Shown: in pieces, positions 4,627 to 62,934 of the stretch
How positions within the stretch are numbered: the first letter of the stretch is position 1
Layout of the letters: the number at the start of each line of letters is the position of its first letter
DNA from: Escherichia phage HermannAdler_Bas98
DNA: 64,000 nucleotides
Sequence record: PQ850608.1
Strand: one strand, 5' to 3'
Translations under genes and position numbers: made by a program
Notes under the pieces: model-generated
Told to the model about the DNA's origin: nothing
Seen by the model: only the letters and a program-made list of their open reading frames with translations
Database searches by the model: none

Positions 4627-4640
4627 TAGGCAGGTGAATA

Positions 4641-5780: not shown

Positions 5781-5805
5781 TTGCTGTGATTACACAGTAA
5801 AACAC

Positions 5806-5835
5806 ATGGGGCGTGGTCGAAAGGCTTCGCCCCAT
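5806..5835 (+). terminator. stem-loop after capsid gene (possible terminator/attenuator)
   Basis: ATGGGGCG - 14 nt loop - CGCCCCAT inverted repeat; no clear T tract. Confidence 0.35.
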
Positions 5836-5895
5836 ATCAATAGACCTCAAGGGCTGTAGGGGCTTATCTGAGGCTTATATAAATAGGACTACAAA

Positions 5896-6360
5896 ATGTC
5901 AAAATACATCGTTTCAACTATGTCTATGTCAGTTAACTACACTTTCTATACGGAAGTGAAAGAAAACCCGAATGCAAAAGCTGGTTCAGGCGCTCTTCCA
6001 AATATTCGCAAACAGATTCTAATCAAGGGCGGCGCTGGTCTTACTTCAGCAACTTCCGGCTTTGGTGAAATGGCAAAAGGCGCTGACGGTGCACCTTTGT
6101 GGACTCCTGAAGGAATCGTCACCGTTGTAAGCGATGCAGATTTTGAGCATCTGAAAGATCATCACGTGTTTAAGCAGCATCTTGAAAAAGGTTTGGTGAA
6201 AGTCGTAAATCACGACATTGTTGGCAATCACAAGGCCGTCGCTAAAGAAGTTCGCGGCATGTCAGACGACCCGTTTGCGCCTATGACGCGCGAAACTGCT
6301 GACAAGCGCATCAAGGTCAAATTGAGCGGCGACCAAGAAGATGATTTATTCCGCGTTTAA
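5896..6360 (+). CDS. hypothetical protein
   Basis: 154 aa ORF in head-tail joining region. Confidence 0.55.
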   Translation: MSKYIVSTMSMSVNYTFYTEVKENPNAKAGSGALPNIRKQILIKGGAGLTSATSGFGEMAKGADGAPLWTPEGIVTVVSDADFEHLKDHHVFKQHLEKGLVKVVNHDIVGNHKAVAKEVRGMSDDPFAPMTRETADKRIKVKLSGDQEDDLFRV

Positions 6361-24175: not shown

Positions 24176-24398
24176 CGGCTTCAACCTGGACGGGCGGCGC
24201 GGAACTTGTATCGATGTCTGGCAAGTCGAAGTAATACCCCGCCATGCCAATCACGCCAACAATCGCGGCCCGTGCCACCTTGTTGCTAATTGACTCCCCA
24301 ATAAGCTTTACCAACAGGGACAAGATTTGAGACGTCAAAGCCTTTTTCAGCCTTTTGTTTTCTTCCAAATCTTTCTGCATAACTACCACCCATGTCAA
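24168..24398 (-). CDS. small membrane protein (possible holin)
   Basis: 76 aa; hydrophobic segment AAIVGVIGMAGYYF; adjacent to endolysin. Confidence 0.3.
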   Translation of the reverse strand: MTWVVVMQKDLEENKRLKKALTSQILSLLVKLIGESISNKVARAAIVGVIGMAGYYFDLPDIDTSSAPPVQVEAVK

Positions 24399-24937
24399 CG
24401 CACATCCTGTGTCTTAACATTACCTGAAGCATCTCTTAATGGCAGTGGATAGTAGGCCATTTGGTAGTCTGATACGCCTTCAACATGATAAAACACGATT
24501 ACGTCTTTGCTGTTGATGAGCATGTTAACGACATCTGATTTATCTTCTGGAGTGAGTATGAGTGCGCCGCCTGTCCTGCTGTCTACTGCAACAGGGTATG
24601 TCTTATCGACAAGGCCGCTGTCCAATGTATTATACCTGACAACGATTTCAGGGGCATCAACTTTTGCAATTGACATTCCGAACACAAACGACACGACTTG
24701 GCGACCGCGATCATTCATTACGCACATCTTTTCCTTGTCAAACCTTTCCTTTATCACATCGTATTTATTCCAGCAAAATTCGAACGATTGGCCGTTGTTA
24801 AAATATCTCGTTAACACTTTGGCATTACTATTTGGCGGCGTAAACATACTTTCAGCCGCTGCACTTTTGGTGAAGAACAAAACTGTCAGCATAGCCATGA
24901 TGATGATCAAAACAATCTTTAAGTTTTTCGATTTCAT
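24395..24937 (-). CDS. secreted protein of unknown function
   Basis: N-terminal signal peptide MKSKNLKIVLIIIMAMLTVLFFTKSAAA. Confidence 0.5.
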   Translation of the reverse strand: MKSKNLKIVLIIIMAMLTVLFFTKSAAAESMFTPPNSNAKVLTRYFNNGQSFEFCWNKYDVIKERFDKEKMCVMNDRGRQVVSFVFGMSIAKVDAPEIVVRYNTLDSGLVDKTYPVAVDSRTGGALILTPEDKSDVVNMLINSKDVIVFYHVEGVSDYQMAYYPLPLRDASGNVKTQDVR

Positions 24938-40534: not shown

Positions 40535-41719
40535 TTAACGCGCTTTCAAATCACGGTACACGGTCAGATTCTTCTTAGCACGGGTGATAGCGGTGTACAT
40601 CATCTTGGAGTACGGAACGCCGCGCAGGATTTCTTCCAGCACGCACACATTGTCCCACTCGCTGCCTTGCGATTTGTGCACCGTGATGACATAGCCATAG
40701 TCCATGCCTCCAACAGCGCGTTGCGCTTCTTTGCGCACTTCCTGATCAGTAGAGAAGGAAAGAGGATTGATCTTCACCTTTATATCTTTACCATCAGTTA
40801 ATGAACGTAAGTTGACATACATTATTTCATTCGACTCATCTTCATCCCTTTCGAAGTCCGGCACTGGCTCATAGCTAATAACAATCCCTTGCTCGCCATT
40901 ACAGAATCCTGGCCCGTGTTGGTTGAAGGTGCAAATAACCTTCTCACCGATTCCTGGCATTGGCGTTATACGTCCGCTCACTTGCCGTAATAATGAATTC
41001 CATTTATCTTTTGTGCTATTATAGGAGCAAATAATTTGATCATCTTCGCCCATGAATTTCTTCAATGCAGTAACGCGCGGCGATTCTGCCAATACTTTGA
41101 CGTCATCGTATTCACGCGGAGGAAGGCGGTTGCCTTGGCGCACGAAGAAGGAGGCGCGGATTATATTGGACTCTTTCCCTTGCCGCATGATTTCTGTTAA
41201 CAGTACGTCAACGGCATCTTCAGTAAAGTAGGCGGCGGCTTTTACCGGAGGGACTTGTCCAATGTCGCCTAATGCCAGGACAGGGATGCGGTGATCAAGA
41301 AGGCGCTCTGTGTCCCACTCGCCAACCATCGACGCTTCATCGAGTACAACAAGATGCGGCCTTTCATCCAGCTTTGACTTTCTCGAAAAGATTGGCTCAT
41401 TGTCGTCATTTACGCCGCGCACGTTATAGATGAACTGGTGAAGGGTCTTAGCGCCACGACAGCCTTTTTGCTTTAATCGGCTTGCAGCCTTTCCGGTCGG
41501 CGCAATATAGATAGCTCCATACTCACCGACACAACGGCGCACAATCTCGCGAGCAATAGAGGTTTTACCAGTCCCTGCATAGCCAGCAATGAAAAACACG
41601 CGCTTCGTCGTTTTACCGTCCTGCAATCGCTTGTACCATGCAACGGCTTTCTCGATGGCGTCGATTTGTTGCGCGTTAAACTGAATCACTGGCTCATCAT
41701 TAAATTCTGGAATGTTCAT
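40535..41719 (-). CDS. Dda/RecD-like SF1 DNA helicase
   Basis: AGYAGTGKTS Walker A, VVLDEASMV Walker B, VITVHKSQGSEWD and YTAITRAKKNL motifs. Confidence 0.75.
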   Translation of the reverse strand: MNIPEFNDEPVIQFNAQQIDAIEKAVAWYKRLQDGKTTKRVFFIAGYAGTGKTSIAREIVRRCVGEYGAIYIAPTGKAASRLKQKGCRGAKTLHQFIYNVRGVNDDNEPIFSRKSKLDERPHLVVLDEASMVGEWDTERLLDHRIPVLALGDIGQVPPVKAAAYFTEDAVDVLLTEIMRQGKESNIIRASFFVRQGNRLPPREYDDVKVLAESPRVTALKKFMGEDDQIICSYNSTKDKWNSLLRQVSGRITPMPGIGEKVICTFNQHGPGFCNGEQGIVISYEPVPDFERDEDESNEIMYVNLRSLTDGKDIKVKINPLSFSTDQEVRKEAQRAVGGMDYGYVITVHKSQGSEWDNVCVLEEILRGVPYSKMMYTAITRAKKNLTVYRDLKAR

Positions 41720-42045
41720 TATAACTCCACTACGCTGTCAAGGTCCAGATATACTGGAATAAAATGGCAATCTTCTTTTCGTTCAAACATCTCACCATCA
41801 ACATGGCTGAAGAAAACAGTTGTGTTTGGTATCTTCCATCCTTTCTCGTCGCGCACTAAGTACGCCATGGATTCAACAGGGATGTACAGCGATACCGGAT
41901 TTGCGGCAAAAATAAATTTGATTCTGTCTGGTTGACCCAGAAATCGCATGATTGTTAGGCTTGAATTCAATCTTGTATTAAGGAAGGACTCAACGATTCC
42001 GACGTGTGTTGCACGTTCGCGTTGCTTCGTCTCTTTTTCGTTCAT
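41719..42045 (-). CDS. hypothetical protein
   Basis: First gene of leftward operon; ATG overlaps downstream gene. Confidence 0.5.
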   Translation of the reverse strand: MNEKETKQRERATHVGIVESFLNTRLNSSLTIMRFLGQPDRIKFIFAANPVSLYIPVESMAYLVRDEKGWKIPNTTVFFSHVDGEMFERKEDCHFIPVYLDLDSVVEL

Positions 42046-44069: not shown

Positions 44070-44174
44070 ATGAAAGCCGTAAAGAAATACACATTAATCA
44101 TTTCCCTTGTTATCATCCTGGGGCTATTATATGTATTGGATATGGCATATTATTTGGCAGGGGTGAGTAAATGA
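44070..44174 (+). CDS. small membrane peptide (34 aa)
   Basis: Single hydrophobic helix; stop overlaps next start (ATGA). Confidence 0.3.
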   Translation: MKAVKKYTLIISLVIILGLLYVLDMAYYLAGVSK

Positions 44175-44461
44175 ATATTGTAATTCTTTATGGTGAAAAT
44201 ATCAGCGATGACGACATCGAAGTTGCCGTTGATGTTTACGGTATCGATGAGGTGAAACGTGTTGAAGAAATTAGTGGCGCAAATCTCAATGAGATTGTCA
44301 AAGAAGCTGGCTGTCCTTCGGAAGAGATTCTGGTGGTTACTAACGATGACCTGTCTTCTATGGATCATTTGCGCCGCATCTTCACCGATTGCCAATACCT
44401 TCATGCTGTTCAATCAGTAAACAAATTGAGAAAGGCATACGCTGACCAATTTCCTTGCTGA
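44171..44461 (+). CDS. hypothetical protein
   Basis: 96 aa ORF, GGGGTGAG RBS. Confidence 0.5.
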   Translation: MNIVILYGENISDDDIEVAVDVYGIDEVKRVEEISGANLNEIVKEAGCPSEEILVVTNDDLSSMDHLRRIFTDCQYLHAVQSVNKLRKAYADQFPC

Positions 44462-44597: not shown

Positions 44598-46268
44598 ATG
44601 TCAATTAATAATGACAATCTTCCAGAGGATACAGGTGATGAATTTGGTGCAATCTTTGACGAAATTCAAGATGCAGGCGTTTCGGAAGAAATGCAGGCAG
44701 CAGAGCAGCAAGGCACCAGAGCTAAAATCAGCCTTCAACACAAAGCCGTTGAAAAAGATTCAGAGCGCATGGAATGCTACGGTGAAGAAGACTTGGTTGA
44801 AAGAGCACGCTTGCTCGCCTCACTTCAGGTAATCAAGTTCCCTCACTACAAGCCTACCAAAGATGACTTCGTTCTACAGGCAGACCGGACGAGTGACATG
44901 AACCGTTATGCGGTTTTCGACGCGTTGTTTGATAAGGGAAGTGGCGTTGTTCCATTCCCTCACAAAGATACTTTTCGTGGGCGCTTAGTCGACCATCGCG
45001 GCGAAACTTTCACCGACCGGACGTTGGAAGTCACAGAGATAGTTGCCGCTGTCGACGCAGCAGGTCTGTCCAACCCAAACTCACGTCAGGTAGCTCAATC
45101 CTATAAGGAATGGGCTATGCGTTATCAGCGTGACGACCTGATGGACTTCTTCTACAAGAAGCTGCCTGAATGGGACGGTACTGCGCGCATTGAGAAATAC
45201 CTTATCGAGCTATTCCGACCGTTCGATACAGAGTTAAACCGACAAATCGGTGTGTATTTTTGGCTATCGCTCTACAACCGACTGACCAACCCTGGCTGTC
45301 AAGCGCCAATCTCCATCGCGCTCATCGGCGGCCAGAACGCAGGGAAGAGTTATTTTAGCAAGCTACTTTGCGAAGCTATTATGAACGACCGCCACGCAAC
45401 ACCGATTCCGTTGAACTTAGCCGCGCAGAACTTCAACCCGTTCTTGCGAGCTATTACGGGTCGCTCAATTATCGCGAACGTCGGCGAGATGACAGGCTTT
45501 AAAAAGGCCGACATCGAAAACATGAAAGCATTCCTGACTAAGACGGAAGATGACCTGGACTTCAAATTTGAAGATACTCAGGTTAAACCACGCCAGTGGA
45601 TTGCTATCATGGACGGCAACGAATACGCAGGCATGCAGCGTGATGACACGGGCAACCGTCGTGTGTATCCTATCTTTGTTGGCCAACTCGCTGACAAGGA
45701 CGGGCAACCGAACTGGTCGAAAGATTTCCAAGCTGACCTTTCCACTTTGAAAGAAGACGTTTGGCAGTTGATGGCTGAGTGCGCTGCATGGATGGAGAAG
45801 CACGGCGAAGCAGGCTATAACGCGTTTGTTGGTGAAACATCTCGCATGCTTACTGAGTTCAGTAAAAACGAAATGGAACGTGCACGCGGCGTTATTCGTG
45901 ATGAGATGGTTGACAACGACCTTGTTGAAGTCGTCATCACCGCGCCTTATGACCGACATCACAGCGGACGCTGGCACATCACCAGTGGTGCTATTGCTAT
46001 GGGATTCAGAGCGAAGTGCGGCAAGTCGCCTTTCTCTCGTACCCTTGCGCCGCACATGTCGAAGCTTGGTTTTGAGCCTGCGACCTATCGCAACCAGCGC
46101 GGTTACTTTACGCCGCTGATTAAGAATGAAGCAGGGGAATACATTTCCGACTTGATGACCATCTTAGCGTATCTTATCCGTGATGAGTCTGACCCTGAAG
46201 ATATTGAATTCTTGAAGAAGGTTATCGAGCGTAAACGTTCTTTGGGAAGAGATAAGGATGAATTCTGA
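44598..46268 (+). CDS. VirE/D5-like P-loop NTPase (putative primase-associated helicase)
   Basis: Walker A GGQNAGKS; downstream acidic Walker B-like region; AGGAGG RBS; partner of prim-pol gene. Confidence 0.55.
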   Translation: MSINNDNLPEDTGDEFGAIFDEIQDAGVSEEMQAAEQQGTRAKISLQHKAVEKDSERMECYGEEDLVERARLLASLQVIKFPHYKPTKDDFVLQADRTSDMNRYAVFDALFDKGSGVVPFPHKDTFRGRLVDHRGETFTDRTLEVTEIVAAVDAAGLSNPNSRQVAQSYKEWAMRYQRDDLMDFFYKKLPEWDGTARIEKYLIELFRPFDTELNRQIGVYFWLSLYNRLTNPGCQAPISIALIGGQNAGKSYFSKLLCEAIMNDRHATPIPLNLAAQNFNPFLRAITGRSIIANVGEMTGFKKADIENMKAFLTKTEDDLDFKFEDTQVKPRQWIAIMDGNEYAGMQRDDTGNRRVYPIFVGQLADKDGQPNWSKDFQADLSTLKEDVWQLMAECAAWMEKHGEAGYNAFVGETSRMLTEFSKNEMERARGVIRDEMVDNDLVEVVITAPYDRHHSGRWHITSGAIAMGFRAKCGKSPFSRTLAPHMSKLGFEPATYRNQRGYFTPLIKNEAGEYISDLMTILAYLIRDESDPEDIEFLKKVIERKRSLGRDKDEF

Positions 46269-46915
46269 TGAATAAAGCAATCAACATCGCTAAATTCTTT
46301 CAACATCTTGGTGAACTGAACAAAGAAAGTGACGTTCACGGCGAAGAAATGAACCGGATGATCTCAACCGTGTTGCGTGGCTTTGGTTATGATAAGGACT
46401 CAATCACTTGCAAGCGTACAAAGCTTGTTGATGAGTCTTATCTTTACTACGTAGAGCTGCGCATCGGGAAAGATGTGATGATCATTGACCCTAAACTGGA
46501 AGGGGCGCACTGTTTTGGCGCTCACCCTCGTGCGAGTGAATTCAAGGGGCGCGGTCGCAACCGAATCCAGAAGCTTGATGACGCAGGCGACTTGAACATT
46601 GCAATGTTCCTTAAAGAGTTCCTTGCGCTACCGAAGGTTGCATCATCCACTGGCCGTGATGACCCTTGCAAGATTGGATTCAGAACTAAAGATTTGCGCA
46701 ATGCGCTACGCAAGAAGGGATTTGTGCCTTCTTATGACAACGTCGCCGCGCTGATGGCTTCAATGGAGGAAGCTGAAGCAATGGATAAAGTGCGCGGCTA
46801 TTTCCTGAATACAGGCTTCACCATGTATGAATGGCACACGAAGGGATTGACTGTCGCCGACTTCATCTATTCATTAGAGCAGAAGTATGTACGCAATATG
46901 CAGGCCACAGGATAA
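46268..46915 (+). CDS. hypothetical protein
   Basis: ATGA overlap with upstream gene. Confidence 0.55.
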   Translation: MNKAINIAKFFQHLGELNKESDVHGEEMNRMISTVLRGFGYDKDSITCKRTKLVDESYLYYVELRIGKDVMIIDPKLEGAHCFGAHPRASEFKGRGRNRIQKLDDAGDLNIAMFLKEFLALPKVASSTGRDDPCKIGFRTKDLRNALRKKGFVPSYDNVAALMASMEEAEAMDKVRGYFLNTGFTMYEWHTKGLTVADFIYSLEQKYVRNMQATG

Positions 46916-46954: not shown

Positions 46955-47179
46955 ATGATTAATTTAGACAGGATTGAGTTAGCACTTAGTACCTTAATCA
47001 AATATTACCAGTTTGCTTTTAAGGCTAGTTTGTTTGGCTTGTTCAATCCTCATCAAGCAGCAAAGGCGCGAAGCAATGCCAACCGCCTGCGCTGCACTGG
47101 TATAGTTATCCACGACCGGATATTGACAGAGGGTAGATTCAGCCATGAATACACAAGGGAGAATAACAAAGCAACGTAG
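46955..47179 (+). CDS. hypothetical protein
   Basis: GAGGTGA RBS. Confidence 0.35.
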   Translation: MINLDRIELALSTLIKYYQFAFKASLFGLFNPHQAAKARSNANRLRCTGIVIHDRILTEGRFSHEYTRENNKAT

Positions 47180-47350
47180 GGCTTTACAAGTCCTCATCCA
47201 CTACCTGTCACGCCTTTATCCAACGGCGCACGAGCAGAATCCAGCAACTGGTCATCTGTTTAAGCGCCGTAACCTTTCGCTAAAAACATTCGCTTTAATC
47301 CAACATGACCGCTACCTGGACGGGCGCTATTGCGGCCCGAAGGATTCTCT

Positions 47351-47629
47351 ATGATTACTACATACAAAGTATTCTTCGTCAAGTGCACATCATCTATTGA
47401 TGACCAATTTACTGCTGGCAAGAATTATCCCGTGATTTCTGAGTCAAAGCTAGATATAATCTTGAACGATCATGAAATCTATGAGCCGATGCCAGCGACT
47501 GCGTTTGATGTTATCGGTCACGTTCGGATTAAGACGAATGTTGAAACGATGCATGATCCGTTGTTCAAGAAGCAAATTAAGAATGCCATGCAAGACTTTT
47601 GCGCGGCTATGTTTAAATATTATAAGTGA
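47351..47629 (+). CDS. hypothetical protein
   Basis: AAGGA RBS, ATG 47351. Confidence 0.4.
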   Translation: MITTYKVFFVKCTSSIDDQFTAGKNYPVISESKLDIILNDHEIYEPMPATAFDVIGHVRIKTNVETMHDPLFKKQIKNAMQDFCAAMFKYYK

Positions 47630-53999: not shown

Positions 54000-54016
54000 T
54001 TATGATTAATGTTAAG

Positions 54017-54037
54017 AGGGCCGATTGGCCCTTTTTA
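54017..54037 (+). terminator. rho-independent terminator
   Basis: GGGCC-GATT-GGCCC hairpin followed by TTTTT; then TTTGCCT resembling cassette -35. Confidence 0.55.
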
Positions 54038-54529
54038 TTTGCCTGTGTAATGGGAGGCTTTTGTGGTTATTTACGATTCAAGGCTGTAATTTAAGAGAGC
54101 GAAAATATTATAATAATTTATCAAGATTATTGCATATTGTGGCAATCAACGTTTATACGTATTTATGACAGTTTAATCCACTAAATAATACGGATAGAAC
54201 AGTGAGGAAAATACAGCGGTGTATTTTAGTGTAAATATTGAATCAAAAATAAATAATTATGGTGCTATTATATACGCAGATTGTTTGTAATTTATAGGAT
54301 ATTTTATCGTGGAGTATTGGCTAACGGTGCGTTAGCCGTGGGTCTTGGTGCTTGTGGTGTTGATGCTCAGAATTTTAATAATGTTTTTAGTTTTAGTAAT
54401 CGTAGTCAATGATGATACGTATAAGAAAATGAGAGTCACCCCTTCACAGGATATTGTACCGTGGCCCTGTGGTGCGCCGCGCCTGGGATTGCTGGTATAC
54501 ACTGGTGCTATTTTGCCGCGAAGGCAGTC

Positions 54530-54790
54530 ATTCATACGTATCATGACGTATCATTGGGCTATTGATTTATAAGGAAAAATACGCTGATACGGATGATACG
54601 GGTGCAAACATAATATATATAGAATTCCAGAAAATTAATTAACTCCATTTTGAATTAATTTAAATTAATTTTTTTCTACATCCTCATACTTATACTAAAC
54701 TTATATTCATACGTATCATCCGTAAGATATAAGTAAAAACAAGGACTTGCGGCAATACGGATGATACGTCATGATACGCTTCGACCAGCC
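54530..54790. repeat. iteron / AT-rich module B (homologous to 2205-2480)
   Basis: CATACGTATCATGACGTATCAT, GATACGGATGATACG, AT-rich core with GAATTC and AATTAATTTAAATTAATTTTTTT, then CATACGTATCATCCGTA and AATACGGATGATACGTCATGATACG. Confidence 0.7.
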
Positions 54791-54943
54791 AGCAGCGGCT
54801 AAGTCATTGATTTGCATAGCAAGCGGCGAAAGGGATGGATTTCTTTTATACGTATCAAACAGTACACCACGCACCACGGTCCGCAATCCTATTTGCAATA
54901 TGATTTGTGTACGTTTATAGCCATAATGAACATCAATCTGCAC

Positions 54944-54972
54944 TTGAATATAATGTCCATCCATTGTATAAT
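54944..54972 (+). promoter_or_regulatory. sigma70-type promoter candidate
   Basis: TTGAAT - 17 nt - TATAAT. Confidence 0.45.
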
Positions 54973-54992
54973 TCACACTATTAATTTGCACT

Positions 54993-55481
54993 ATGGGATT
55001 TTGCACTATGAGTCAAGATTATGTAGCGATGCCTGAAGACTTTGAAGACCCGCGATTCGCAGAGCACAATCAGGCTTTATTCGATGAGTTCATTGACCTT
55101 GTTATTCAGGGTCATGACATGCGCGCAGCTTTTGCACTAGTATTTGGAATGGAAGTTGCAACGGATAACTACACTGGCCAGCGAATCCTTTGCACGCAAC
55201 GCAATCCATACTACAAGATGCGCTTCAAAAAGCGTATGGAAGAGATGCCACTCAAGGATTTGTGGAGCGTAAAAGGTGCAATTCACAATTTGGTCAAGCT
55301 TGTGCGTGATCCAGAAGTCGCGGCGTCAGCCAAGCTTAATGCTATTCGTGAACTGAATATCATCTACGGCATCACGATGATTGATGAAAACGGCAATAGT
55401 AAAATGGGCCGTTCTATGGACGATTTCTACAAGGATTTTGGAGAGGCTGCCAAAGAAGGAGAGCAATTCTCCCGCCACTAG
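54993..55481 (+). CDS. hypothetical protein (possible helix-turn-helix; terminase small subunit-like)
   Basis: 162 aa ORF; no Shine-Dalgarno; the repeat motif TTTGCACTATG lies on its start region; functional call speculative. Confidence 0.4.
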   Translation: MGFCTMSQDYVAMPEDFEDPRFAEHNQALFDEFIDLVIQGHDMRAAFALVFGMEVATDNYTGQRILCTQRNPYYKMRFKKRMEEMPLKDLWSVKGAIHNLVKLVRDPEVAASAKLNAIRELNIIYGITMIDENGNSKMGRSMDDFYKDFGEAAKEGEQFSRH

Positions 55482-55500
55482 CCAATTTGCACTATAAAAC

Positions 55501-55534
55501 GGCCCTAGAACACATGTTCTCCACTTCTAGGGCC
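55501..55534 (+). terminator. stem-loop (possible terminator)
   Basis: GGCCCTAGAA - 14 nt - TTCTAGGGCC; no T tract. Confidence 0.35.
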
Positions 55535-55595
55535 ATCGGTAATACGACGGGGAAGGTCGCACCCATAAACGCGTTAGAAAGTGTATTATTATAAG

Positions 55596-55859
55596 TCATC
55601 TTTTAGTCGCTTTACGTAACAATTTACGACCTTCAACCGTCCAATCGAACGACTCCACCAGCAGATTCGCACTATAACCTAAGACGATGCGCCCTTTCTC
55701 GTTATCGACCCGCCAACAAGTCTCGAATAGCATTCGATTTGCACTATTAACTATTGCCGCAACGCGCGTAGGGTAAGCGCAATTTGCACTATGGTCGTAA
55801 AGGGATAAGGTGCGACCACTTCCGATGGACAATGTAGCGATGAGAATAAGCGTATTCAT
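55596..55859 (-). CDS. hypothetical protein (doubtful ORF within repeat array)
   Basis: 87 aa ORF with GGTGG RBS, but contains three motif copies (translated as SAN). Confidence 0.3.
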   Translation of the reverse strand: MNTLILIATLSIGSGRTLSLYDHSANCAYPTRVAAIVNSANRMLFETCWRVDNEKGRIVLGYSANLLVESFDWTVEGRKLLRKATKR

Positions 55860-55909
55860 AAGCCACCAATTTGCACTATGAAAAGCGACCCCGAAGGGCC
55901 GCCATTCGA

Positions 55910-56536
55910 TTAGATAATCTGGAAGGTGTAGGACTTGTTGCCGAACTCGAAGTTCAAGCGTCCAGCTTCTTTAAGCTTCATGCGGAAGCGAATGTGCTTG
56001 CTATCCGGTAATCCCAGCGCGGCGAAGGCTACGCGGACCGATTTGAACTCGCCTACACCCTCGACCATAACGCCGTTACGGGTGAGACGCTTTTGCGCCA
56101 CTTCCTTATTATCCCAACTTTTTGCAATACCTTCGCTATTCGAACGGCGATGGGAAGGAGTTCCATTTTGCACTACGCAATTTGCACTATCGTTTAAGCC
56201 GCTCTTAACGAAGGCTTCATACTCTTCATCGCTCATCGCGTCGAGTTCTTCCTGGGTCGGCTCAGCCTTTTTAACGACCGCACGCGCCTTATGCGTTTTT
56301 ACATCACTGGACACTTCCTCACGCGGCTTCGCGTCGGGAATGGGCGATTCGTTGGACGGCTCATCGAGCGCGTTTAAGGACTCGATTAACGCGATTACGC
56401 GAGTCTCGGCGGTCCGGCGGTCCGCAAATTTCTTAATCGGCTTCGAACCGGAATTTGCATTATAAAATGCAACGAGGTCGGCGGTCTTAGTTGCGATAAC
56501 GTCGCCGCTAGTAGAAAAGCGATTTAAGCTAACCAT
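55910..56536 (-). CDS. hypothetical protein (candidate DNA-binding protein of the island)
   Basis: 208 aa; RBS context AGGAGTTTATTATGG identical to the next gene; two motif copies inside coding sequence. Confidence 0.5.
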   Translation of the reverse strand: MVSLNRFSTSGDVIATKTADLVAFYNANSGSKPIKKFADRRTAETRVIALIESLNALDEPSNESPIPDAKPREEVSSDVKTHKARAVVKKAEPTQEELDAMSDEEYEAFVKSGLNDSANCVVQNGTPSHRRSNSEGIAKSWDNKEVAQKRLTRNGVMVEGVGEFKSVRVAFAALGLPDSKHIRFRMKLKEAGRLNFEFGNKSYTFQII

Positions 56537-56616
56537 AATAAACTCCTATTTGTTAGGGCGCTAGGCGCGAAAGAATTTTATTAAAGCGCCGCGCACGACG
56601 CTCTAAAAATCCTCTC

Positions 56617-56931
56617 TTACTCTTCGTCGTCTTCGATTAATTCGAGGGCGAAGGCGTAAGCTTTGCTATCGTAATTAACTAAAACGGCGAGTTCGAACTC
56701 GTTAATAAACGCCGTTTTACCGCATAAATTTAATTCCGCATCGACTTCGAAGAATCCGTTTTCGTCGCGCTCTAAGCGAGAAGCAGCGAGTTGCTCGATT
56801 ACCGTCGCGTCGTTAATTTCTTCGCCTAAGCGAACGCCGGAGAATTTCGCGAGAATTTCGCCGTAAGTAAGCGTAACGCCCTGGACTTCGGCGGCGGCGT
56901 TTTCGAGGGTAAAGCGGGTAACGATAGCCAT
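56617..56931 (-). CDS. small very acidic protein (104 aa)
   Basis: 22 Asp/Glu vs 7 Lys/Arg; AGGAGTTTATTATGG start context; C-ending codon bias distinct from neighbouring early genes. Confidence 0.6.
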   Translation of the reverse strand: MAIVTRFTLENAAAEVQGVTLTYGEILAKFSGVRLGEEINDATVIEQLAASRLERDENGFFEVDAELNLCGKTAFINEFELAVLVNYDSKAYAFALELIEDDEE

Positions 56932-56999
56932 AATAAACTCCTAGTTGGGAGAGGCGTTAACGACCTATTCGTTAACTCATCCCGTCCCGATATGAGTAC

Positions 57000-57027
57000 A
57001 TTATAATATAGTGTAGAAAAAAGTAAA
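57000..57027 (-). promoter_or_regulatory. promoter cassette copy (minus strand) driving 56617-56931
   Basis: Minus strand reads GTGCTTTACT - 16 nt - TATAAT ... ATATCGGGACGGG, matching the two plus-strand cassettes. Confidence 0.5.
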
Positions 57028-57071
57028 GCACTTTTTCGATAAAAATGCGATAAATTATTTTATCTTTTTTC

Positions 57072-57099
57072 TTTACTTCTTCGTACACTCGCGTATACT
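57072..57099 (+). promoter_or_regulatory. promoter cassette copy driving 57156-57458
   Basis: CTTTACTTCTTCGTACACT ... TATACT (16 nt spacer) ... TTTATATCGAGACGGG. Confidence 0.5.
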
Positions 57100-57155
57100 T
57101 GTTTATATCGAGACGGGCGATGGCCCTTTCTTCTACTAGCATCGGGAGCTTTATT

Positions 57156-57458
57156 ATGACTACTTTAATCTCTTCCATCCTTACTTACGACGAAGACCGC
57201 TTAACCGTTCGCTCTCTTATCGCCGCCGTTAACGCGGAACTAGAATCTAGCGCCATTAAGGTCCGCGCGGTCGCCTTCATCGGCCTTTCCTTCGACGATA
57301 TGAAGTATGCCGAACGTAGCGCCATCCGCTTCGCGAAGACCGACGACGAAGCCGTTACCCTTATCGAGACGGTTACGCCGCGCGGCGAAGCGTTAATTAT
57401 CGTCGAGTATATCGACGTAGAAGGCGATAAATCTTATAAACATTTTATCGCAGAATAA
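57156..57458 (+). CDS. small acidic protein (100 aa)
   Basis: 18 Asp/Glu vs 11 Lys/Arg; C-ending codon bias. Confidence 0.6.
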   Translation: MTTLISSILTYDEDRLTVRSLIAAVNAELESSAIKVRAVAFIGLSFDDMKYAERSAIRFAKTDDEAVTLIETVTPRGEALIIVEYIDVEGDKSYKHFIAE

Positions 57459-57470
57459 CGAAAAAAGTGC

Positions 57471-57499
57471 TTTACTTCTTCGTACACTAAGACTATAAT
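57471..57499 (+). promoter_or_regulatory. promoter cassette copy driving 57567-57857
   Basis: GTGCTTTACTTCTTCGTACACT ... TATAAT (17 nt spacer) ... TTTATATCGAGAGGGG. Confidence 0.55.
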
Positions 57500-57566
57500 G
57501 TTTTATATCGAGAGGGGATGAGGTAGCGAATAGGTCACTACCCTCCCGACTAACTAGGAGAATATT

Positions 57567-57857
57567 ATGATTACTTTAGCCGCTATCCGTTCCGCTCGCG
57601 TCGAAACTTCCGAAAACTCTAACGTATTTGGCGAAAAACTTAAAAACGTTTATCTCTTTAACGTAGATGCGACTATCGAGGAGCTTCACAGTCCTATCGA
57701 TTTTAGCGAATTTACGGAACTCGAAGAGGAAGATATTTCTACCTTCCGCGTTACTATCGAAGGCAAGGTTTATTTTGCTACGGAGTTCGGCGGCGAATAT
57801 CTCGCGGTATCCGAAGGCGAAGGCCGTTACTCTTTCTTTAAAATCGTTTCCTTATAA
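57567..57857 (+). CDS. small acidic protein (96 aa)
   Basis: 18 Asp/Glu vs 8 Lys/Arg; TAGGAG RBS. Confidence 0.6.
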   Translation: MITLAAIRSARVETSENSNVFGEKLKNVYLFNVDATIEELHSPIDFSEFTELEEEDISTFRVTIEGKVYFATEFGGEYLAVSEGEGRYSFFKIVSL

Positions 57858-57877
57858 TACCCTTCCGTTACTAATAG

Positions 57878-57900
57878 GCCGCGCTTAGTCGCGGCTTTTC
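57878..57900 (+). terminator. rho-independent terminator
   Basis: GCCGCG-CTTAGT-CGCGGC followed by TTTT. Confidence 0.6.
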
Positions 57901-57904
57901 TTCG

Positions 57905-58555
57905 TCCCTATCTCGATGCGCTCCTACGCGAAAACTCCTTTATCCTTCCCTTCGTCGTCGCATAATCTTCTTCGAGATGCGTCTTAGTTCGCATAACAGG
58001 TATTACGTTAAATGGAGAACATCGCGTAAGTCCTTGTTTTATATAGACACCTATATCGGACCGTTAGGGCGGGTCGCGTAAGTCGTTGTTTTATAAAGGC
58101 ACAAAACTTTCCCTTCGTTCCGAACTAAAACGAGAAATATGCCGACCCTTCGCCCGAAAATAGTACGTATGCGAAATTACATTCATCTCGAATAATCCCT
58201 CCCGATATTATCCTACACGCAATCATTCGCTTTCGAATCATTATGCTTCATATTATTATGCGTCGAATCATTCGCTTTCGAATTGTAACGCTGGAAACTG
58301 TAACGTCGATTGATTATTGCGTTCGTGTGGTTTTTATGGCATGGGTCTTTTGGTGCGTTTTGCTACTTGATGGAATTTGCGGTACACTAATCAAAATACG
58401 ACACATTTGGTCCACTAACTTTTCAAAGAAAAAGTCCTAGACAGTACCGTACTATTTTGTACCCACAGGAAATTTGCAGTACACTCCTGAGCGGCAGGCA
58501 AAATAAAGGGCCGCACTAAGCGACCCACGATTCACGGTTAAATCAGCAACACCCA
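57905..58555. repeat. noncoding repeat-rich region
   Basis: No credible ORF; duplicated GCGTAAGTC(C/G)TTGTTTTATA, duplicated AATCATTCGCTTTCGAAT (ATTCG...CGAAT arms), duplicated TTTGC(G/A)GTACACT. Confidence 0.55.
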
Positions 58556-60220: not shown

Positions 60221-62554
60221 TTATTTCGCTGCTTTCAGCGCGGCTATCTCTGCCTCTAGTGACTCGACCTTTTTCATCAACTCCTGCACCACGTGCATCG
60301 TATCCAAAAGCATAGGTGTGGTGTCAAGTTGCTTTTGCTCGACCTCTACACCTTCACTCGGATAAAACTTCACCGTTTTTACATACAACGGGTCGATTAT
60401 CTCTGCTTTTTGAGCGATGATGCCCCTTCTTACCCTTTCCTTTTCATCATTGTTGTAGATGAACGTTACATACTCCAGCGATGAAAGGTTGCTCCATGCT
60501 TTTTCAACCGTTCCTGGTTGTATGTCATGCTTCAAATTCTCATCAGAGATGGCATTCTTCTGAAGAGTGTAAAAGCTATCTGATCCAAGAATTGACACAG
60601 AGAAAAATACATCATGAGAGTTAGGCTGTATGTTCATCCTTGTCTGGTACTGAGCGTTGTCATCACCAACAACAAGCCAAGTCCCCTGCGCAAAACTTCC
60701 GTTATTATTATGGATCAAACCGTGATGAAGAGTGGTTGCATAGCCTGTATCTACTTGTTGACCGCCGCTGAAAAGGCTGTTGAATGCATAGTTTTGACCT
60801 ATTGACTGTCTCACCGTTGCATAAGTGCCGATTCTTGTGCCAGTCTCGCTCCAAGACATGAGACTTCCATATCTCGCAGCAAATCTGTCACTGCTAAGGG
60901 TGCCCGCATCGTCAAATGCAAGGTCTTTAGTCACCCCTTTTGTTTTATTGTACACAGACAGGATTGCATAATAAAACCCATCCATGTATGCATCACACCG
61001 CAATCCAGCATCCGCTTCAACAACAGCACCAATTTTGTATTGTGCTCTTACCTGCCCTGAAGATGCCTTGACTCCTGAACCTGGGCGAACAGCATCAGCA
61101 TTGATTACTTGCCATTGCGTATTCGCGGCAACAAATCCACCCGATGCACGAATCACCCAAACGCCGACAAAGTTGCGCGGAACGATTTCCGCTGCTGAAC
61201 GACCATAAACAGGACTGCAGCGAGAAGCGTCAAAGTTTGTTTGTATGAATCTTGACCCAGAGCCTGCTGCCGCAGGAGAGTCACCCGAAGTTATTGACTG
61301 AAAAGCACCATTAGTTGCCACCTGGCTTGGTGCAGAAGCCAGCGTCACCATTGTGTGCGGCGCTGCGTAAGTTATATTTGGCGCGCCTGATTCAGACACG
61401 ATACCGTTGGCTGATGAATTACCGCCATCACCTCTTCCAAACAAGGCCTGTATGGAACCAGTTTGAACACCGTTCCTGTCAGGCACTCGAAACGTCGTCG
61501 TTCCGTTACCCAGAGAATACTTGCCGCGTTTCGCTGGGTCCGCTAACCAATCTGCATCTGCAATAGGTGAAAGCATTTGCGCATACGCCCAAAGCTCAGG
61601 CCAATCCGCTCGATTCAGCAATTGCCCATCAGCAACGACTTCATACGGTTGAATATATGCACGACTGTCGCGTAAGTGGAAGTCGCCGACGCCATAGTTC
61701 ATAACACCGTTCATGCTTGGGCCAACGGTGCCTGTGTTTACTAAGTTCTCAACCCAACGCTTGGTCGCGGCATCATAATCGTTAACTGGGTCACCAGCCA
61801 GTGGCGTTGAACCTTGTGGGCGAATATTTAACCATGCTTGCGCATTATCTGCTGAGCCTGTGCCGCCCATGGAAGTTGGAACGATGTCTTGATCAGCAAC
61901 AGTCCCGAATCCAAAAGCAGACTTCATCCCTTGGATTGTCGTTTGGCCTGTGCCGCCATTAGCTACTGGGATTATGCTTGACTCGGAATAAATCATGACC
62001 CAAGGAGACCATGATTGAGTTTCCATGGTGAATCTTCTTTGATATGTATTGTTGGAATCGAATGTCGTATATCGCTGAATGCAACTTTCTGATATAACGC
62101 CTGTCTGCAATACTTCTAATACTCCTGCTTGCTGCGCAGGGTAATTCAAAGCTGAAGATGCACCACCGTTTGAATTTTGGAAGTACTGCCCAAACCAAGT
62201 CCCTGTAAGCGCATTAAGATTCATGCCGGATGGAACAATCCCAAAGTTTCGGACAGTACCCGTCAAAGTCGCGGCAGTTGTTCGAATGGAAAGCATATCG
62301 CCAGCCTCCCATGCACGCGCTGCAGTTCCTTCCTGTGCACGCTGTACTGTCAGCACGTTTCCAACCACGGCTGTTACTGTGACGATTTCGAATTGGAGGC
62401 CTGTTGCAGCGTCGACGATTGTCGCCACTACACGCTCATTTGCACTCAAGGTCGGAAAGCCCGACCCTGAGCGAATTGTGATTGTGGTGTCTGAAGTCGT
62501 CATTGGTTGGGCAAGCGCGACCTCAAAGTTGTTTTTGAATATTAGCCTTGGCAT
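60221..62554 (-). CDS. tail fibre protein with C-terminal intramolecular chaperone (peptidase S74-like) domain
   Basis: 777 aa; PVANGGTGQTT fibre motif; C-terminal ...AISDENLKHDIQP...coiled-coil tail resembles self-cleaving chaperone domain of endosialidase-type fibres. Confidence 0.6.
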   Translation of the reverse strand: MPRLIFKNNFEVALAQPMTTSDTTITIRSGSGFPTLSANERVVATIVDAATGLQFEIVTVTAVVGNVLTVQRAQEGTAARAWEAGDMLSIRTTAATLTGTVRNFGIVPSGMNLNALTGTWFGQYFQNSNGGASSALNYPAQQAGVLEVLQTGVISESCIQRYTTFDSNNTYQRRFTMETQSWSPWVMIYSESSIIPVANGGTGQTTIQGMKSAFGFGTVADQDIVPTSMGGTGSADNAQAWLNIRPQGSTPLAGDPVNDYDAATKRWVENLVNTGTVGPSMNGVMNYGVGDFHLRDSRAYIQPYEVVADGQLLNRADWPELWAYAQMLSPIADADWLADPAKRGKYSLGNGTTTFRVPDRNGVQTGSIQALFGRGDGGNSSANGIVSESGAPNITYAAPHTMVTLASAPSQVATNGAFQSITSGDSPAAAGSGSRFIQTNFDASRCSPVYGRSAAEIVPRNFVGVWVIRASGGFVAANTQWQVINADAVRPGSGVKASSGQVRAQYKIGAVVEADAGLRCDAYMDGFYYAILSVYNKTKGVTKDLAFDDAGTLSSDRFAARYGSLMSWSETGTRIGTYATVRQSIGQNYAFNSLFSGGQQVDTGYATTLHHGLIHNNNGSFAQGTWLVVGDDNAQYQTRMNIQPNSHDVFFSVSILGSDSFYTLQKNAISDENLKHDIQPGTVEKAWSNLSSLEYVTFIYNNDEKERVRRGIIAQKAEIIDPLYVKTVKFYPSEGVEVEQKQLDTTPMLLDTMHVVQELMKKVESLEAEIAALKAAK

Positions 62555-62592
62555 TTTACGGTCCTCGTTTTGTCGACAACCGTATTATAACC

Positions 62593-62934
62593 TTAATTTC
62601 TTTTGAGAGGAATATGACGGTGGCCGCCATTATTTGGTTTAATAATGAGCATAAAAACGATTAGAAAGATGATGGCTGATATACTTAATTCAATCAGCGC
62701 GGCTTGAGATATAGATTGATCTTCATGATACTGCTTTTGCATTTCCGCTTTCTTCTGAGCGCAAACTTCAGGTGATATGTAATCTCCTTTTGAGTTGCCA
62801 TAATAAATTTCGCCGTTTTCAGAAATCAGTCTGCCGCAAATATCCGTTTCAGCCTTTGCACTTGACATCATAATAACGGTGCCGATAATAGCGGCGATGG
62901 TCCAAATTAACAGTTGTGATAAAGTGTTGTTCAT
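62593..62934 (-). CDS. membrane-anchored exported protein
   Basis: AAGAGG RBS; signal peptide MNNTLSQLLIWTIAAIIGTVIMMSSAKA; C-terminal TM ALIELSISAIIFLIVFMLI. Confidence 0.5.
   Translation of the reverse strand: MNNTLSQLLIWTIAAIIGTVIMMSSAKAETDICGRLISENGEIYYGNSKGDYISPEVCAQKKAEMQKQYHEDQSISQAALIELSISAIIFLIVFMLIIKPNNGGHRHIPLKRN

What the first reader, a model, noticed from the sequence alone, without database searches (positions are those of the whole stretch)
54983..56463. Array of about ten same-orientation copies of AATTTGCACTAT
The 12-mer recurs at irregular spacing, all on the plus strand: two tandem pairs (54983/54999 and 56165/56179), single copies at 55484, 55664, 55736, 55781, 55868 and a degenerate copy at 56452. 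Several copies lie inside minus-strand ORFs (three inside the 87 aa ORF 55596-55859, read as Ser-Ala-Asn), so the DNA signal constrains or overrides coding. The pattern resembles iterons of a replication origin embedded in an initiator gene (as lambda ori lies within gene O), a centromere-like site, or a cluster of binding sites for a phage regulator. By eye I found the motif nowhere else in the window.
Basis: seen in the sequence. Interest (0 to 1): 0.7.

Follow-up and report, generated by a model that had tools for sequence, protein, structure and literature searches.

The report
Oriented repeat array beside phage genome end
A 12-base motif repeated about a dozen times, always on one strand, lies just inside the physical end of this E. 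coli phage's genome and around its small-terminase gene. It is kept in distant relatives, so it is most likely a DNA signal read by the packaging or genome-end machinery, not a replication origin.

Summary
There are 11 strong and 2 weak copies of AATTTGCACTAT, all on the + strand, at 54890-56463. Nothing comparable occurs elsewhere in the window.

The window is a Wifcevirus, a myophage distantly related to Pbunavirus. The array occupies the left half of the ~3.7 kb direct terminal repeat (54647-58350), starting about 320 nt from the physical left end. It overlaps the promoter and start codon of terS (55008-55481, homologous to the solved E217 small terminase) and runs through the next two minus-strand genes.

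The same core, RATTYGCACTAY, forms arrays of 9-14 copies in the same place and orientation in Kylevirus phages and related metagenomic contigs. There the DNA is only about 50% identical. A few copies keep their position and the rest have turned over.

Five other genera with the same synteny have no such array.

Best reading: a cis-acting array of sites for a phage DNA-binding protein involved in terminal-repeat or packaging recognition, most likely TerS (confidence 0.4).

Rivals: another phage DNA-binding protein, a Chi-like polar signal, a replication origin, or an RNA-level motif.

The origin and centromere readings are not supported. No binding was tested here, and the literature searches turned up no prior description.

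The parts
54647..58350 (.). Direct terminal repeat (DTR) of the phage genome, inferred by homology. The physical left end corresponds to 54647. The right boundary is 58350 (58431 in phage WFC).
   Evidence: Four independently deposited relatives start 360 nt upstream of the terS ATG: Mansfield (PhageTerm), WFC, WFH and Ro157lw. Three of them end at the same base.
54413..54857 (.). Nested inverted repeats of ATGATACG boxes centred on the left terminus. Arms: 54413-54429/54841-54857, 54537-54554/54761-54778 (18 nt, 100% complementary) and 54711-54724/54756-54769.
   Evidence: The centres lie at 54635-54657 and the terminus at 54647. The same architecture, with different sequences, occurs in Kyle, PA1 and MyoSmar.
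54944..54972 (+). Predicted sigma-70 promoter of terS (TTGAAT-N17-TATAAT).
   Evidence: 10 of 12 matches. Copy 54970 overlaps the -10 hexamer.
54890..54901 (+). Weak motif copy TATTTGCAATAT. Relatives have CAGCACTAT here.
54970..55009 (+). Three tandem copies at 54970, 54983 and 54998 (13 and 15 bp apart). They cover the -10 hexamer, the 5' UTR and the ATG of terS.
   Evidence: Invariant in 9 Wifcevirus genomes apart from one indel.
55008..55481 (+). terS, the small terminase (157 aa). It contains one weak internal copy at 55129-55140 (CTTTTGCACTAG).
   Evidence: phmmer hit to PDB 7UXE (E217 TerS), E=7e-34. Mansfield annotates the homolog as TerS.
55484..55495 (+). Exact copy starting 3 nt after the terS stop codon. 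A Chi-like octamer precedes it (CCACTAGC, 55475-55482).
   Evidence: Kyle has a copy at the aligned position.
55501..55534 (.). Hairpin between terS and the 87-aa gene, a terminator candidate for both strands.
   Evidence: Read from the sequence. WFC and WFH annotate it as a terminator.
55596..55859 (-). 87-aa gene for a small protein with a signal-peptide-like N-terminus. It carries copies at 55664, 55736 and 55781 (each read as Ser-Ala-Asn) and one Chi site at 55655-55662 on the minus strand.
   Evidence: It is a homolog of Kyle gp2. Copies 55736 and 55781 are at aligned positions in Kylevirus.
55868..55879 (+). Exact copy between the start of the 87-aa gene and the terminator of the 208-aa gene.
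   Evidence: Position conserved in Kyle and PA1.
55910..56536 (-). 208-aa gene of unknown function. It carries the tandem pair 56165/56179 in the part coding a disordered linker, and copy 56452 in the part coding the N-terminal helical domain.
   Evidence: The copies are absent in the ECML-117 clade. The protein is conserved in 7 genera. Fold matches to SAP/Rho-N-like domains are weak.
58372..58485 (+). Two copies of a related element, G(A/G)AATTTGC(G/A)GTACACT, at 58372-58388 and 58469-58485. They start 22 and 119 nt beyond the right boundary of the DTR.
   Evidence: Two copies of the equivalent element lie beyond the right boundary in Kyle. PA1 and L158 have similar paired elements, but their right boundaries are not mapped.

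Best explanation
The array is a cis-acting DNA element of the terminal repeat. It is a set of about a dozen co-oriented recognition sites (family consensus RATTYGCACTAY) for a phage-encoded sequence-specific DNA-binding protein, placed next to the physical left end of the genome.

The most likely reader is the small terminase TerS, whose gene the array wraps around. Several TerS rings, or HTH pairs, would load on the ~1-1.5 kb next to the terminus. This would mark the concatemer junction as phage DNA and position the terminase for the cut at the symmetric, AT-rich site 320 nt to the left. It would be the functional analogue of lambda cosB or of pac sites that lie in or beside terS. The three sites over the terS promoter and start codon would also give autoregulation.

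Shown here: the array, its strand lock, its position in the DTR beside terS, and its conservation across genera with turnover of copies. Inferred: that a protein binds it, that the protein is TerS, and that the purpose is packaging.
For: 1. Non-random and strand-locked. In the DTR, GCACTA occurs 10 times on + and 0 times on -. Shuffles give a mean of 0.9 and a maximum of 5.

2. Position. The copies lie 243-1816 nt from the physical left end shared by four independently determined relatives. They flank and overlap terS, which matches the solved E217 TerS at E=7e-34.

3. Selection on the DNA.
- Kyle (TerS 43% identical) has 14 copies on + and 1 on - in its DTR. T[TC]GCACTA occurs 9 times there and nowhere else in the ~66 kb outside the repeat.
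- PA1 has 13 on + and 0 on -. Metagenomic contig L158 has 9 on + and 0 on -. The short contigs L162 and L163 have 3 and 6.
- DNA identity across these regions is only 50-60%. Three copy positions are shared between genera and the others have turned over.

4. Synteny. In seven genera terS lies about 360-390 nt (616 nt in Pbunavirus) from the terminus or record start, far from terL.

5. A TerS signature tracks the array. Every array-bearing TerS has [Q/R/K]-R before the invariant Asn of 'RNPYY'. The five array-less lineages have Glu or Asp followed by Ser, Phe or Ala.

6. The other cut site. A related element (GRAATTYRC...GTACACT, two copies) lies just beyond the right DTR boundary in both the window and Kyle, so both cut sites have motif-like sequence nearby. 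PA1 has equivalent paired elements, but its boundary is not mapped.

7. Precedent. Per the TerS review PMC9611059, the P22 pac site lies within its TerS gene, and SPP1 has multiple TerS contact points flanking the initial cut. That lambda cosB R sites and P1 pac hexamers are short repeated elements is from my own knowledge.
Against: 1. Five genera with homologous TerS (30-41% identity), the same synteny and, in MyoSmar, the same symmetric terminus have no array of this or any other detectable motif. The array is therefore not needed by this TerS family in general.

2. E217 TerS showed no appreciable DNA binding in vitro (PMC9611059).

3. The spacing is irregular (13-355 bp) and the span is 1-1.5 kb. 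This is unlike the compact pac and cosB sites, and cannot be wrapped on one decamer.

4. In Kylevirus the array is interleaved and co-oriented with 7-10 Chi sites that are active for RecBCD entering from this same end. That suggests the end is open rather than occluded by terminase, as argued for lambda-type phages in PMC12315714.

5. The terminus itself is flanked by a different, inverted-repeat motif, which could be the true terminase site.

6. The TerS signature is confounded with phylogeny, because all array-bearing lineages may form one clade.

7. Within the genus, motif columns are only marginally more conserved than their neighbours (4.6% against 10.3% variable, p=0.058).
Confidence: 0.4

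Rival explanations
1. The sites are read by a different phage DNA-binding protein, not TerS. Candidates are the conserved 208-aa neighbour (55910-56536) or one of the uncharacterised proteins shared only by Wifcevirus and Kylevirus. The array would then serve end protection, pairing of the two repeat copies, or timed silencing of the early genes in the repeat, including terS.

For: Three copies cover the terS promoter and ATG like an operator.

At least five real-looking ORFs have Kyle homologs but no PS44 homolog, and none has a family assignment: 24395-24937, 41719-42045, 44171-44461, 46268-46915 and 47145-47354.
Against: The 208-aa protein, including its C-terminal domain (64% identical in Gekk3-15), is present in genera that lack the array. 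No Pfam or PDB sequence hit supports DNA binding, and the fold matches are weak.

Kyle has no copies at its terS promoter, so operator function is not conserved.

None of the lineage-specific ORFs has a recognisable DNA-binding domain.
Confidence: 0.25
2. The motif is a polar, Chi-like signal. A translocating enzyme entering from the left genome end would read it on one strand. The enzyme could be a helicase-nuclease or the packaging motor. Reading the signal would change that enzyme's behaviour, for example by stopping degradation, promoting recombination between the terminal repeats, or slowing the motor before the terminal cut.
For: The orientation is strictly single in six lineages. Spacing is irregular, the copies ignore gene boundaries and frames, and copies turn over while their density is kept. 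This matches the statistics of Chi clusters better than those of operators or iterons.

In Kyle, PA1, L158, L162 and L163 the copies are interleaved with clustered host Chi sites in the same orientation and the same ~1.7 kb.

Terminal clustering of Chi is an established phage strategy, seen in P1 and in lambdoid LLS (PMC12315714).
Against: No enzyme is known to read this sequence. A 10-12 nt motif is longer than the known Chi sequences (5-8 nt, from my own knowledge). It is not the host Chi, and Kylevirus already has plenty of genuine Chi. No phage helicase-nuclease specific to the array-bearing lineages was found.
Confidence: 0.12
3. The array is part of a replication origin. The sites would be iteron-like binding sites or priming sites used by the phage primase/helicase genes that lie just upstream of the non-coding gap.
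For: The repeats are direct. An AT-rich, symmetric, non-coding region (54000-54990) lies next to them. In all genera the replication module (primases and primase-helicase) ends just upstream.
Against: The spacing is irregular and most copies lie inside unrelated genes. No initiator gene overlaps them. The primase-helicase genes are conserved in the five genera that lack the array. GC-skew turning points follow gene orientation and give no independent origin signal. The AT-rich centre coincides with the packaging terminus, which explains it otherwise.
Confidence: 0.08
4. The motif acts at the RNA level, as repeated sites on the + strand transcript that starts at the terS promoter. It could work, for example, as a protein sponge or a regulator of antisense RNA.
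For: Every strong copy lies downstream of the predicted terS promoter and on its sense strand. The same holds in Kyle.
Against: A strong hairpin directly follows terS in both genera, and most copies lie beyond it. The region has no Rfam match. The flanks are not conserved, so no shared structure exists. The related elements beyond the right boundary are not in that transcript.
Confidence: 0.03

Closest known systems
Lambda cosB (R1-R3 sites for gpNu1), and pac sites in or beside terS (P22, SPP1 pacL/pacR, P1 pac hexamers)
   Same: Short repeated recognition elements lie between or around the cut site and the small-terminase gene. One set sits immediately upstream of the terS start. Their role is to mark viral DNA for the terminase.
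   Different: Here there are about 13 copies spread irregularly over 1.5 kb, all in one orientation and mostly inside other genes. The phage has a 3.7 kb direct terminal repeat rather than cos ends or headful packaging. The cut site has its own, different, symmetric motif. Binding by TerS is untested, and related TerS-bearing genera lack the array.
Terminal Chi clusters in phages (P1 terminal redundancy; lambdoid LLS; PMC12315714)
   Same: The motif is single-orientation, irregularly spaced and gene-indifferent, and it is concentrated within about 2 kb of a genome end. In Kylevirus it lies literally interleaved with such a Chi cluster.
   Different: The sequence is not Chi. It is specific to the phage lineage rather than to the host. 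No cognate translocase is known.
Phage T7 concatemer-junction signals (pacB, the CJ pause site, repeat arrays SRL/SRR next to the terminal repeat; from my own knowledge)
   Same: T7 is also a direct-terminal-repeat phage, with strand-specific and repeated short sequences next to the repeat that are needed for maturing concatemers.
   Different: The phage group is unrelated, the motifs differ, T7 depends on its own RNA polymerase, and its repeat is only 160 bp.
Plasmid and phage origin iterons (lambda ori in gene O; P4 ori/crr octamers)
   Same: Direct repeats of a short motif, some of them inside coding sequence.
   Different: There is no regular spacing, no initiator gene, and no evidence of origin activity. 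The surrounding genes are for packaging and small early proteins.

Membership tests
Small terminase (TerS), E217/Pbunavirus type: applies to the gene 55008-55481, not to the array | Sequence homology to an experimentally characterised TerS | tested here: met
   phmmer against the PDB finds 7UXE (E217 TerS decamer), E=7.2e-34, residues 3-147. The review PMC9611059 identifies 7UXE as E217 TerS.
Small terminase (TerS), E217/Pbunavirus type | Protomer of about 15-21 kDa with an N-terminal HTH and an oligomerisation core | tested here: inconclusive
   The size fits (157 aa), and the alignment covers the whole fold of 7UXE. The HTH geometry was not modelled here.
Terminase recognition site (pac / cosB type) | Lies next to the genome terminus and in or beside the terS gene | tested here: met
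   The copies lie 243-1816 nt from the left end and overlap the terS promoter, ATG, body and 3' flank.
Terminase recognition site (pac / cosB type) | Bound specifically by TerS | not testable with these tools
   Only indirect evidence exists: a two-residue TerS signature co-occurs with the array. E217 TerS did not bind DNA in vitro (PMC9611059).
Terminase recognition site (pac / cosB type) | Required in cis for packaging | not testable with these tools
   This needs plasmid-transduction or recoding experiments.
Terminase recognition site (pac / cosB type) | A comparable element is present wherever the homologous TerS and terminus architecture are present | tested here: not met
   PS44, MyoSmar, XcP1, Maja and Gekk3-15 have no GCACTA array and no other over-represented oriented 8-mer above the shuffle level, apart from host Chi.
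Replication-origin iterons | Regularly spaced direct repeats of 17-22 bp next to an AT-rich unwinding element | tested here: not met
   The motif is a 12-mer with spacings of 13, 15, 131, 355, 180, 72, 45, 87, 297, 14 and 273 bp. The AT-rich segment lies 250-320 nt away and coincides with the terminus.
Replication-origin iterons | Located in or beside the cognate initiator gene | tested here: not met
   The host genes are terS, a small protein with a signal-peptide-like N-terminus, and an unassigned 208-aa protein.
Centromere-like partition site (parS/parC/sopC) | Partner partition genes (ParA/ParB, ParM/ParR) in the genome | tested here: not met
   None is annotated in Bas99 or Kyle. The DTR proteins give no Pfam hit.
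Chi-type polar hotspot | Single orientation relative to a DNA end, clustered near that end, irregular spacing | tested here: met
   Strand counts of 13/0, 14/1, 13/0 and 9/0 in four lineages, all within about 2 kb of the terS-proximal end.
Chi-type polar hotspot | Is the sequence recognised by the host RecBCD/AddAB enzyme | tested here: not met
   The motif is not GCTGGTGG. Genuine Chi forms a separate, interleaved cluster in Kylevirus.
Sigma-70 promoter | -35 and -10 hexamers at 16-18 bp spacing associated with the motif | tested here: not met
   Only the terS promoter overlaps a copy. No promoter-like partner accompanies the other copies on either strand.

The most novel reading that the evidence does not exclude
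RATTYGCACTAY is a new kind of phage-specified polar signal. It would be a Chi-like sequence read on one strand by an enzyme moving in from the genome end, either a phage or host helicase-nuclease or the terminase motor. The signal would control what happens to the terminal repeat: protection, recombination between the repeats, or the terminal cut. It would be maintained by selection on density and orientation rather than on position.
Probability: 0.12. Interest if true: 0.85.

Novelty: new variant of a known kind. Interest (0 to 1): 0.55.

Why it matters
How small terminases recognise viral DNA is described as "a key question still unanswered" in the TerS review PMC9611059. The solved E217 TerS, the closest structural relative of this protein, showed no DNA binding in vitro. 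From my own knowledge, packaging signals of phages with long direct terminal repeats are also poorly defined.

This array gives a concrete, multi-copy candidate ligand that is conserved across genera, for a TerS with a solved homolog. It occurs in phages that can now be grown on E. coli K-12 derivatives (BASEL Bas98-101, PMC11990801). The question therefore becomes directly testable by EMSA, DAP-seq, recoding and plasmid-packaging assays.

Tried and rejected
1. Sigma-70, sigma-54, MotA-box or extended -10 promoter. No consistent partner hexamers were found on either strand, and most copies would drive antisense or intragenic transcripts.

2. Host transcription-factor sites (NtrC, marbox, IHF and others), compared from memory. 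The flanks are not conserved, so no match holds.

3. By-product of protein repeats. The copies lie in three genes, in more than one reading frame, on both coding strands and in intergenic DNA. In terS the copies sit at different residues in Kyle, PA1 and Wifcevirus.

4. Scan of viral contigs for paired TTGCACTA. It returned mostly chance matches or coding repeats. Only ECML-117 was relevant.

5. The search for related loci with a 7-genus TerS alignment failed. With 3 sequences it returned only known phages.

6. Phylogenetic profiling of the 208-aa protein. BLAST at first suggested that its C-terminal domain was specific to array-bearing phages. MAFFT and BLAST against more loci showed it is in all genera, so the idea was dropped.

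7. Whole-genome profile of proteins shared with Kyle but not PS44. It yielded only uncharacterised ORFs with no Pfam or PHROG hit.

8. Within-genus conservation test. It was only marginal, p=0.058, because the genomes are 93-98% identical.

9. Pseudomonas 'Chi' (GCTGGCGC). There is no cluster near terS in Pbunavirus.

10. Rfam search found nothing.

11. The primary E217 terminase paper (PMC10026623) is not held in the library.
Full report
**Observation.**

The exact 12-mer AATTTGCACTAT occurs five times in the window. All five are on the + strand within 54983-56190, where 0.03 are expected. With up to two mismatches there are 12 copies in 54890-56463, all on +. The seven other matches in the window are scattered on both strands at chance level.

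A weight matrix built from the copies gives 11 strong sites of at least 15 bits: 54970, 54983, 54998, 55484, 55664, 55736, 55781, 55868, 56165, 56179 and 56452. It also gives two weak sites at 54890 and 55129. Nothing above 14.4 bits occurs elsewhere.

It omits 54970 and the two weak copies. The coding claim holds: the 87-aa ORF reads Ser-Ala-Asn three times.

The roughly 4.4 kb of the genome that lies outside the window has no hit in the 98%-identical phage Bas99.

**What the window is.**

The region is 93-98% identical to Wifcevirus phages of E. coli and Shigella: WFC, WFH, ECML-117, Mansfield and Bas99-101. These are about 68 kb myoviruses with a terminal repeat of about 3.7 kb (PMC6563267). 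They are distant relatives of Pbunavirus (PMC11990801).

Four independently deposited genomes begin 360 nt upstream of the same gene: Mansfield (ends called by PhageTerm), WFC, WFH and Ro157lw. Three of them end at the same base. By homology, the physical left end corresponds to window 54647, and the direct terminal repeat (DTR) spans 54647-58350.

That first gene, 55008-55481, is the small terminase. It matches the solved E217 TerS decamer (PDB 7UXE) at E=7e-34 (identity of 7UXE from PMC9611059). The large terminase lies about 8.7 kb further on.

The array therefore occupies the left half of the DTR, from 243 nt (weak copy) or 323 nt (first strong copy) to 1816 nt from the genome end.

**Anatomy.**

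- A predicted sigma-70 promoter for terS (TTGAAT-N17-TATAAT) lies at 54944-54972.
- The three tandem copies at 54970, 54983 and 54998 cover its -10 hexamer, the 5' UTR and the ATG.
- One weak copy lies inside terS, and one exact copy starts 3 nt after its stop codon.
- A hairpin follows at 55501-55534.
- Three copies lie in the minus-strand 87-aa gene. This is a real gene, homologous to Kyle gp2, with a signal-peptide-like N-terminus.
- One copy lies between that gene's start and the terminator of the upstream 208-aa gene.
- Three copies lie in the 208-aa gene. Two of them fall in the region coding a linker that is disordered in the model.

Across nine Wifcevirus genomes the nine central copies are almost invariant. 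The three copies in the 208-aa gene are lost in one clade, where that segment is a different allele. Because these genomes are so similar, the excess conservation of motif columns is only marginal (4.6% against 10.3% variable, p=0.058).

**Cross-genus evidence.**

This is the strongest result.

TerS homologs occur in seven genera with the same layout: replication module, non-coding gap, terS on +, then small minus-strand genes.

- Pantoea phage Kyle (TerS 43% identical) has its terS 356 nt from its left end. It carries 14 GCACTA copies on the + strand at 477-1483. T[TC]GCACTA occurs nine times per repeat copy and nowhere else in the ~66 kb outside the repeat.
- Pantoea phage PA1 has 13 copies on + and 0 on -.
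- Metagenomic contigs with TerS 49-71% identical to Kyle have 9, 3 and 6 copies, all on +. The last two contigs are only about 1 kb long.

Pooled over 55 copies, the consensus is RATT(T/C)GCACTA(T/C).

DNA identity across these regions is only 50-60%. Three copy positions are shared between genera: after the terS stop, the 'NSAN' codons of the small gene, and upstream of that gene's start. The rest differ, even inside terS. So copy number, orientation and location are maintained while individual copies turn over. That pattern argues for selection on the DNA itself.

By contrast, Pbunavirus PS44, Serratia MyoSmar, Xanthomonas XcP1, Burkholderia Maja and Aeromonas Gekk3-15 have no GCACTA array. 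They also have no other oriented 8-mer above shuffle levels.

**Other features of the genome end.**

*The left terminus.* It lies at the centre of nested inverted repeats of a different motif, ATGATACG boxes. One arm pair, 54537-54554/54761-54778, is 18 nt long and perfectly complementary. The centres lie at 54635-54657. Kyle, PA1 and MyoSmar show the same symmetric architecture with their own sequences. This is the more obvious candidate for the cleavage site itself.

*The right boundary.* Just beyond the right DTR boundary the window has two copies of a related element, G(A/G)AATTTGC(G/A)GTACACT (58372-58388 and 58469-58485). Kyle has an equivalent pair just beyond its mapped boundary. PA1 and L158 have similar pairs, but their boundaries are not mapped. 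Motif-like sequence therefore lies near both cut sites in the window and in Kyle.

*Chi sites.* In Kyle, PA1, L158, L162, L163 and MyoSmar the same ~2 kb carries 2-10 host Chi sites (GCTGGTGG) on the minus strand. That is the orientation active for RecBCD entering from the terS-proximal end. In Kyle, 9 of the 15 Chi sites in the genome, counting one repeat copy, lie there. Terminal Chi clusters are known from P1 and lambdoid LLS (PMC12315714). The window has only one Chi (55655) and one Chi-like octamer (55475) in this region.

**Who reads the motif?**

TerS is the natural candidate. Its gene is embedded in the array and is always tied to this genome end. Recognition sites in or beside terS have precedent: PMC9611059 describes the P22 pac site inside its TerS gene and the multiple SPP1 contacts flanking the initial cut. 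Lambda cosB and the P1 pac hexamers are added from my own knowledge.

Every array-bearing TerS has [Q/R/K]-Arg immediately before the invariant Asn of 'RNPYY' (Wifcevirus residues 64-65). The five array-less lineages have Glu or Asp followed by Ser, Phe or Ala. By analogy with SF6-type TerS DNA-binding domains, recalled from memory, this is the end of the recognition helix. The signature is suggestive, but it is confounded with phylogeny.

Several points count against TerS:

- E217 TerS did not bind DNA in vitro (PMC9611059).
- Array-less relatives manage without the array.
- The array is far larger and less regular than known pac or cosB sites.
- The Chi orientation suggests that this end is accessible rather than covered.

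A whole-genome comparison found several ORFs shared with Kyle but not with PS44. None has any family assignment.

**Verdict.**

The array is real, strongly non-random and under selection across genera. It belongs to the terminal repeat and packaging end of the genome, not to an origin-plus-initiator or partition system.

I commit to a cis-acting array of protein-recognition sites involved in recognising the terminal repeat for packaging, with TerS as the most likely reader (0.4).

The rivals, with my confidence in each:

- Another phage DNA-binding protein: 0.25
- A Chi-like polar signal: 0.12
- A replication origin or priming sites: 0.08
- An RNA-level motif: 0.03

No binding or function was tested here.

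The paper searches I ran found no description of this motif.

Noticed in passing
L012 (Kyle) 255-1972; L151 (PA1) 4361-5933; L158 4873-6570; L014 (MyoSmar) 5653-5993; window 55655 and 55475: Clusters of 4-10 host Chi sites (GCTGGTGG) lie on the minus strand within about 2 kb of the terS-proximal genome end in Kylevirus-like phages and MyoSmar. They are oriented for RecBCD entering from that end. In Kyle, 9 of the 15 Chi sites in the genome lie there. The Wifcevirus window has only one Chi and one Chi-like site (GCTAGTGG). Terminal Chi clusters are known for P1 and lambdoid LLS (PMC12315714), but I found no report for this phage group.
   Followed up: partly
window 54413-54857: The physical left end (54647) lies at the centre of nested inverted repeats of ATGATACG boxes, in an AT-rich non-coding gap. 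One arm pair is 18 nt long and 100% complementary. Kyle, PA1 and MyoSmar have the same symmetric layout with unrelated sequences. This is probably the cleavage-site architecture.
   Followed up: partly
window 58372-58388 and 58469-58485; L012 3628-3642 and 3967-3981; L151 8166-8180 and 8627-8641: A paired element, G(A/G)AATT(T/C)(G/A)C(N1-3)GTACACT, lies just beyond the right boundary of the terminal repeat in the window and in Kyle. PA1 has equivalent pairs, but its boundary is unmapped. Its first half resembles the array motif. In the window it overlaps a 65-aa ORF (58243-58440) that spans the boundary, so coding constraint is not excluded.
   Followed up: partly
window 57000-57100 and 57440-57500: There are two near-identical predicted promoters (TTTACT-N16/17-TATA(C/A)T), each with GTACACT in the spacer, about 400 bp apart, within long inverted repeats (57009-57060 / 57438-57489). 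PA1 has the same promoter form. GTACACT also occurs close to the left ends of Kyle, PS44 and MyoSmar.
   Followed up: no
window 55910-56536 (-): This 208-aa protein is conserved next to terS in seven genera (PHROG 4730, function unknown). The model shows an N-terminal helical domain, a C-terminal alpha/beta domain and long disordered linkers. Its fold resemblance to SAP/Rho-N-like nucleic-acid-binding domains is weak.
   Followed up: partly
window 55596-55859 (-): The 87-aa ORF is a real gene. It is homologous to Kyle gp2, and both have a signal-peptide-like N-terminus. It has no family assignment.
   Followed up: partly
L013/L157 (PS44, NC_028939.1) 1-2400 and 60397-62800: The second terS copy in the PS44 record is internal (60998-61567) and is followed by 6 kb of other genes. 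The record therefore does not have a repeat at both ends. It looks like an assembly or arrangement artefact, so it was not used as evidence for a Pbunavirus terminal repeat.
   Followed up: no
window 56617-56931 (-): This 104-aa protein, encoded in the terminal repeat, is very acidic (C-terminus ...LELIEDDEE). Only its first ~39 residues match a Kyle ORF. It might be a DNA mimic or host-takeover protein, but this was not examined.
   Followed up: no
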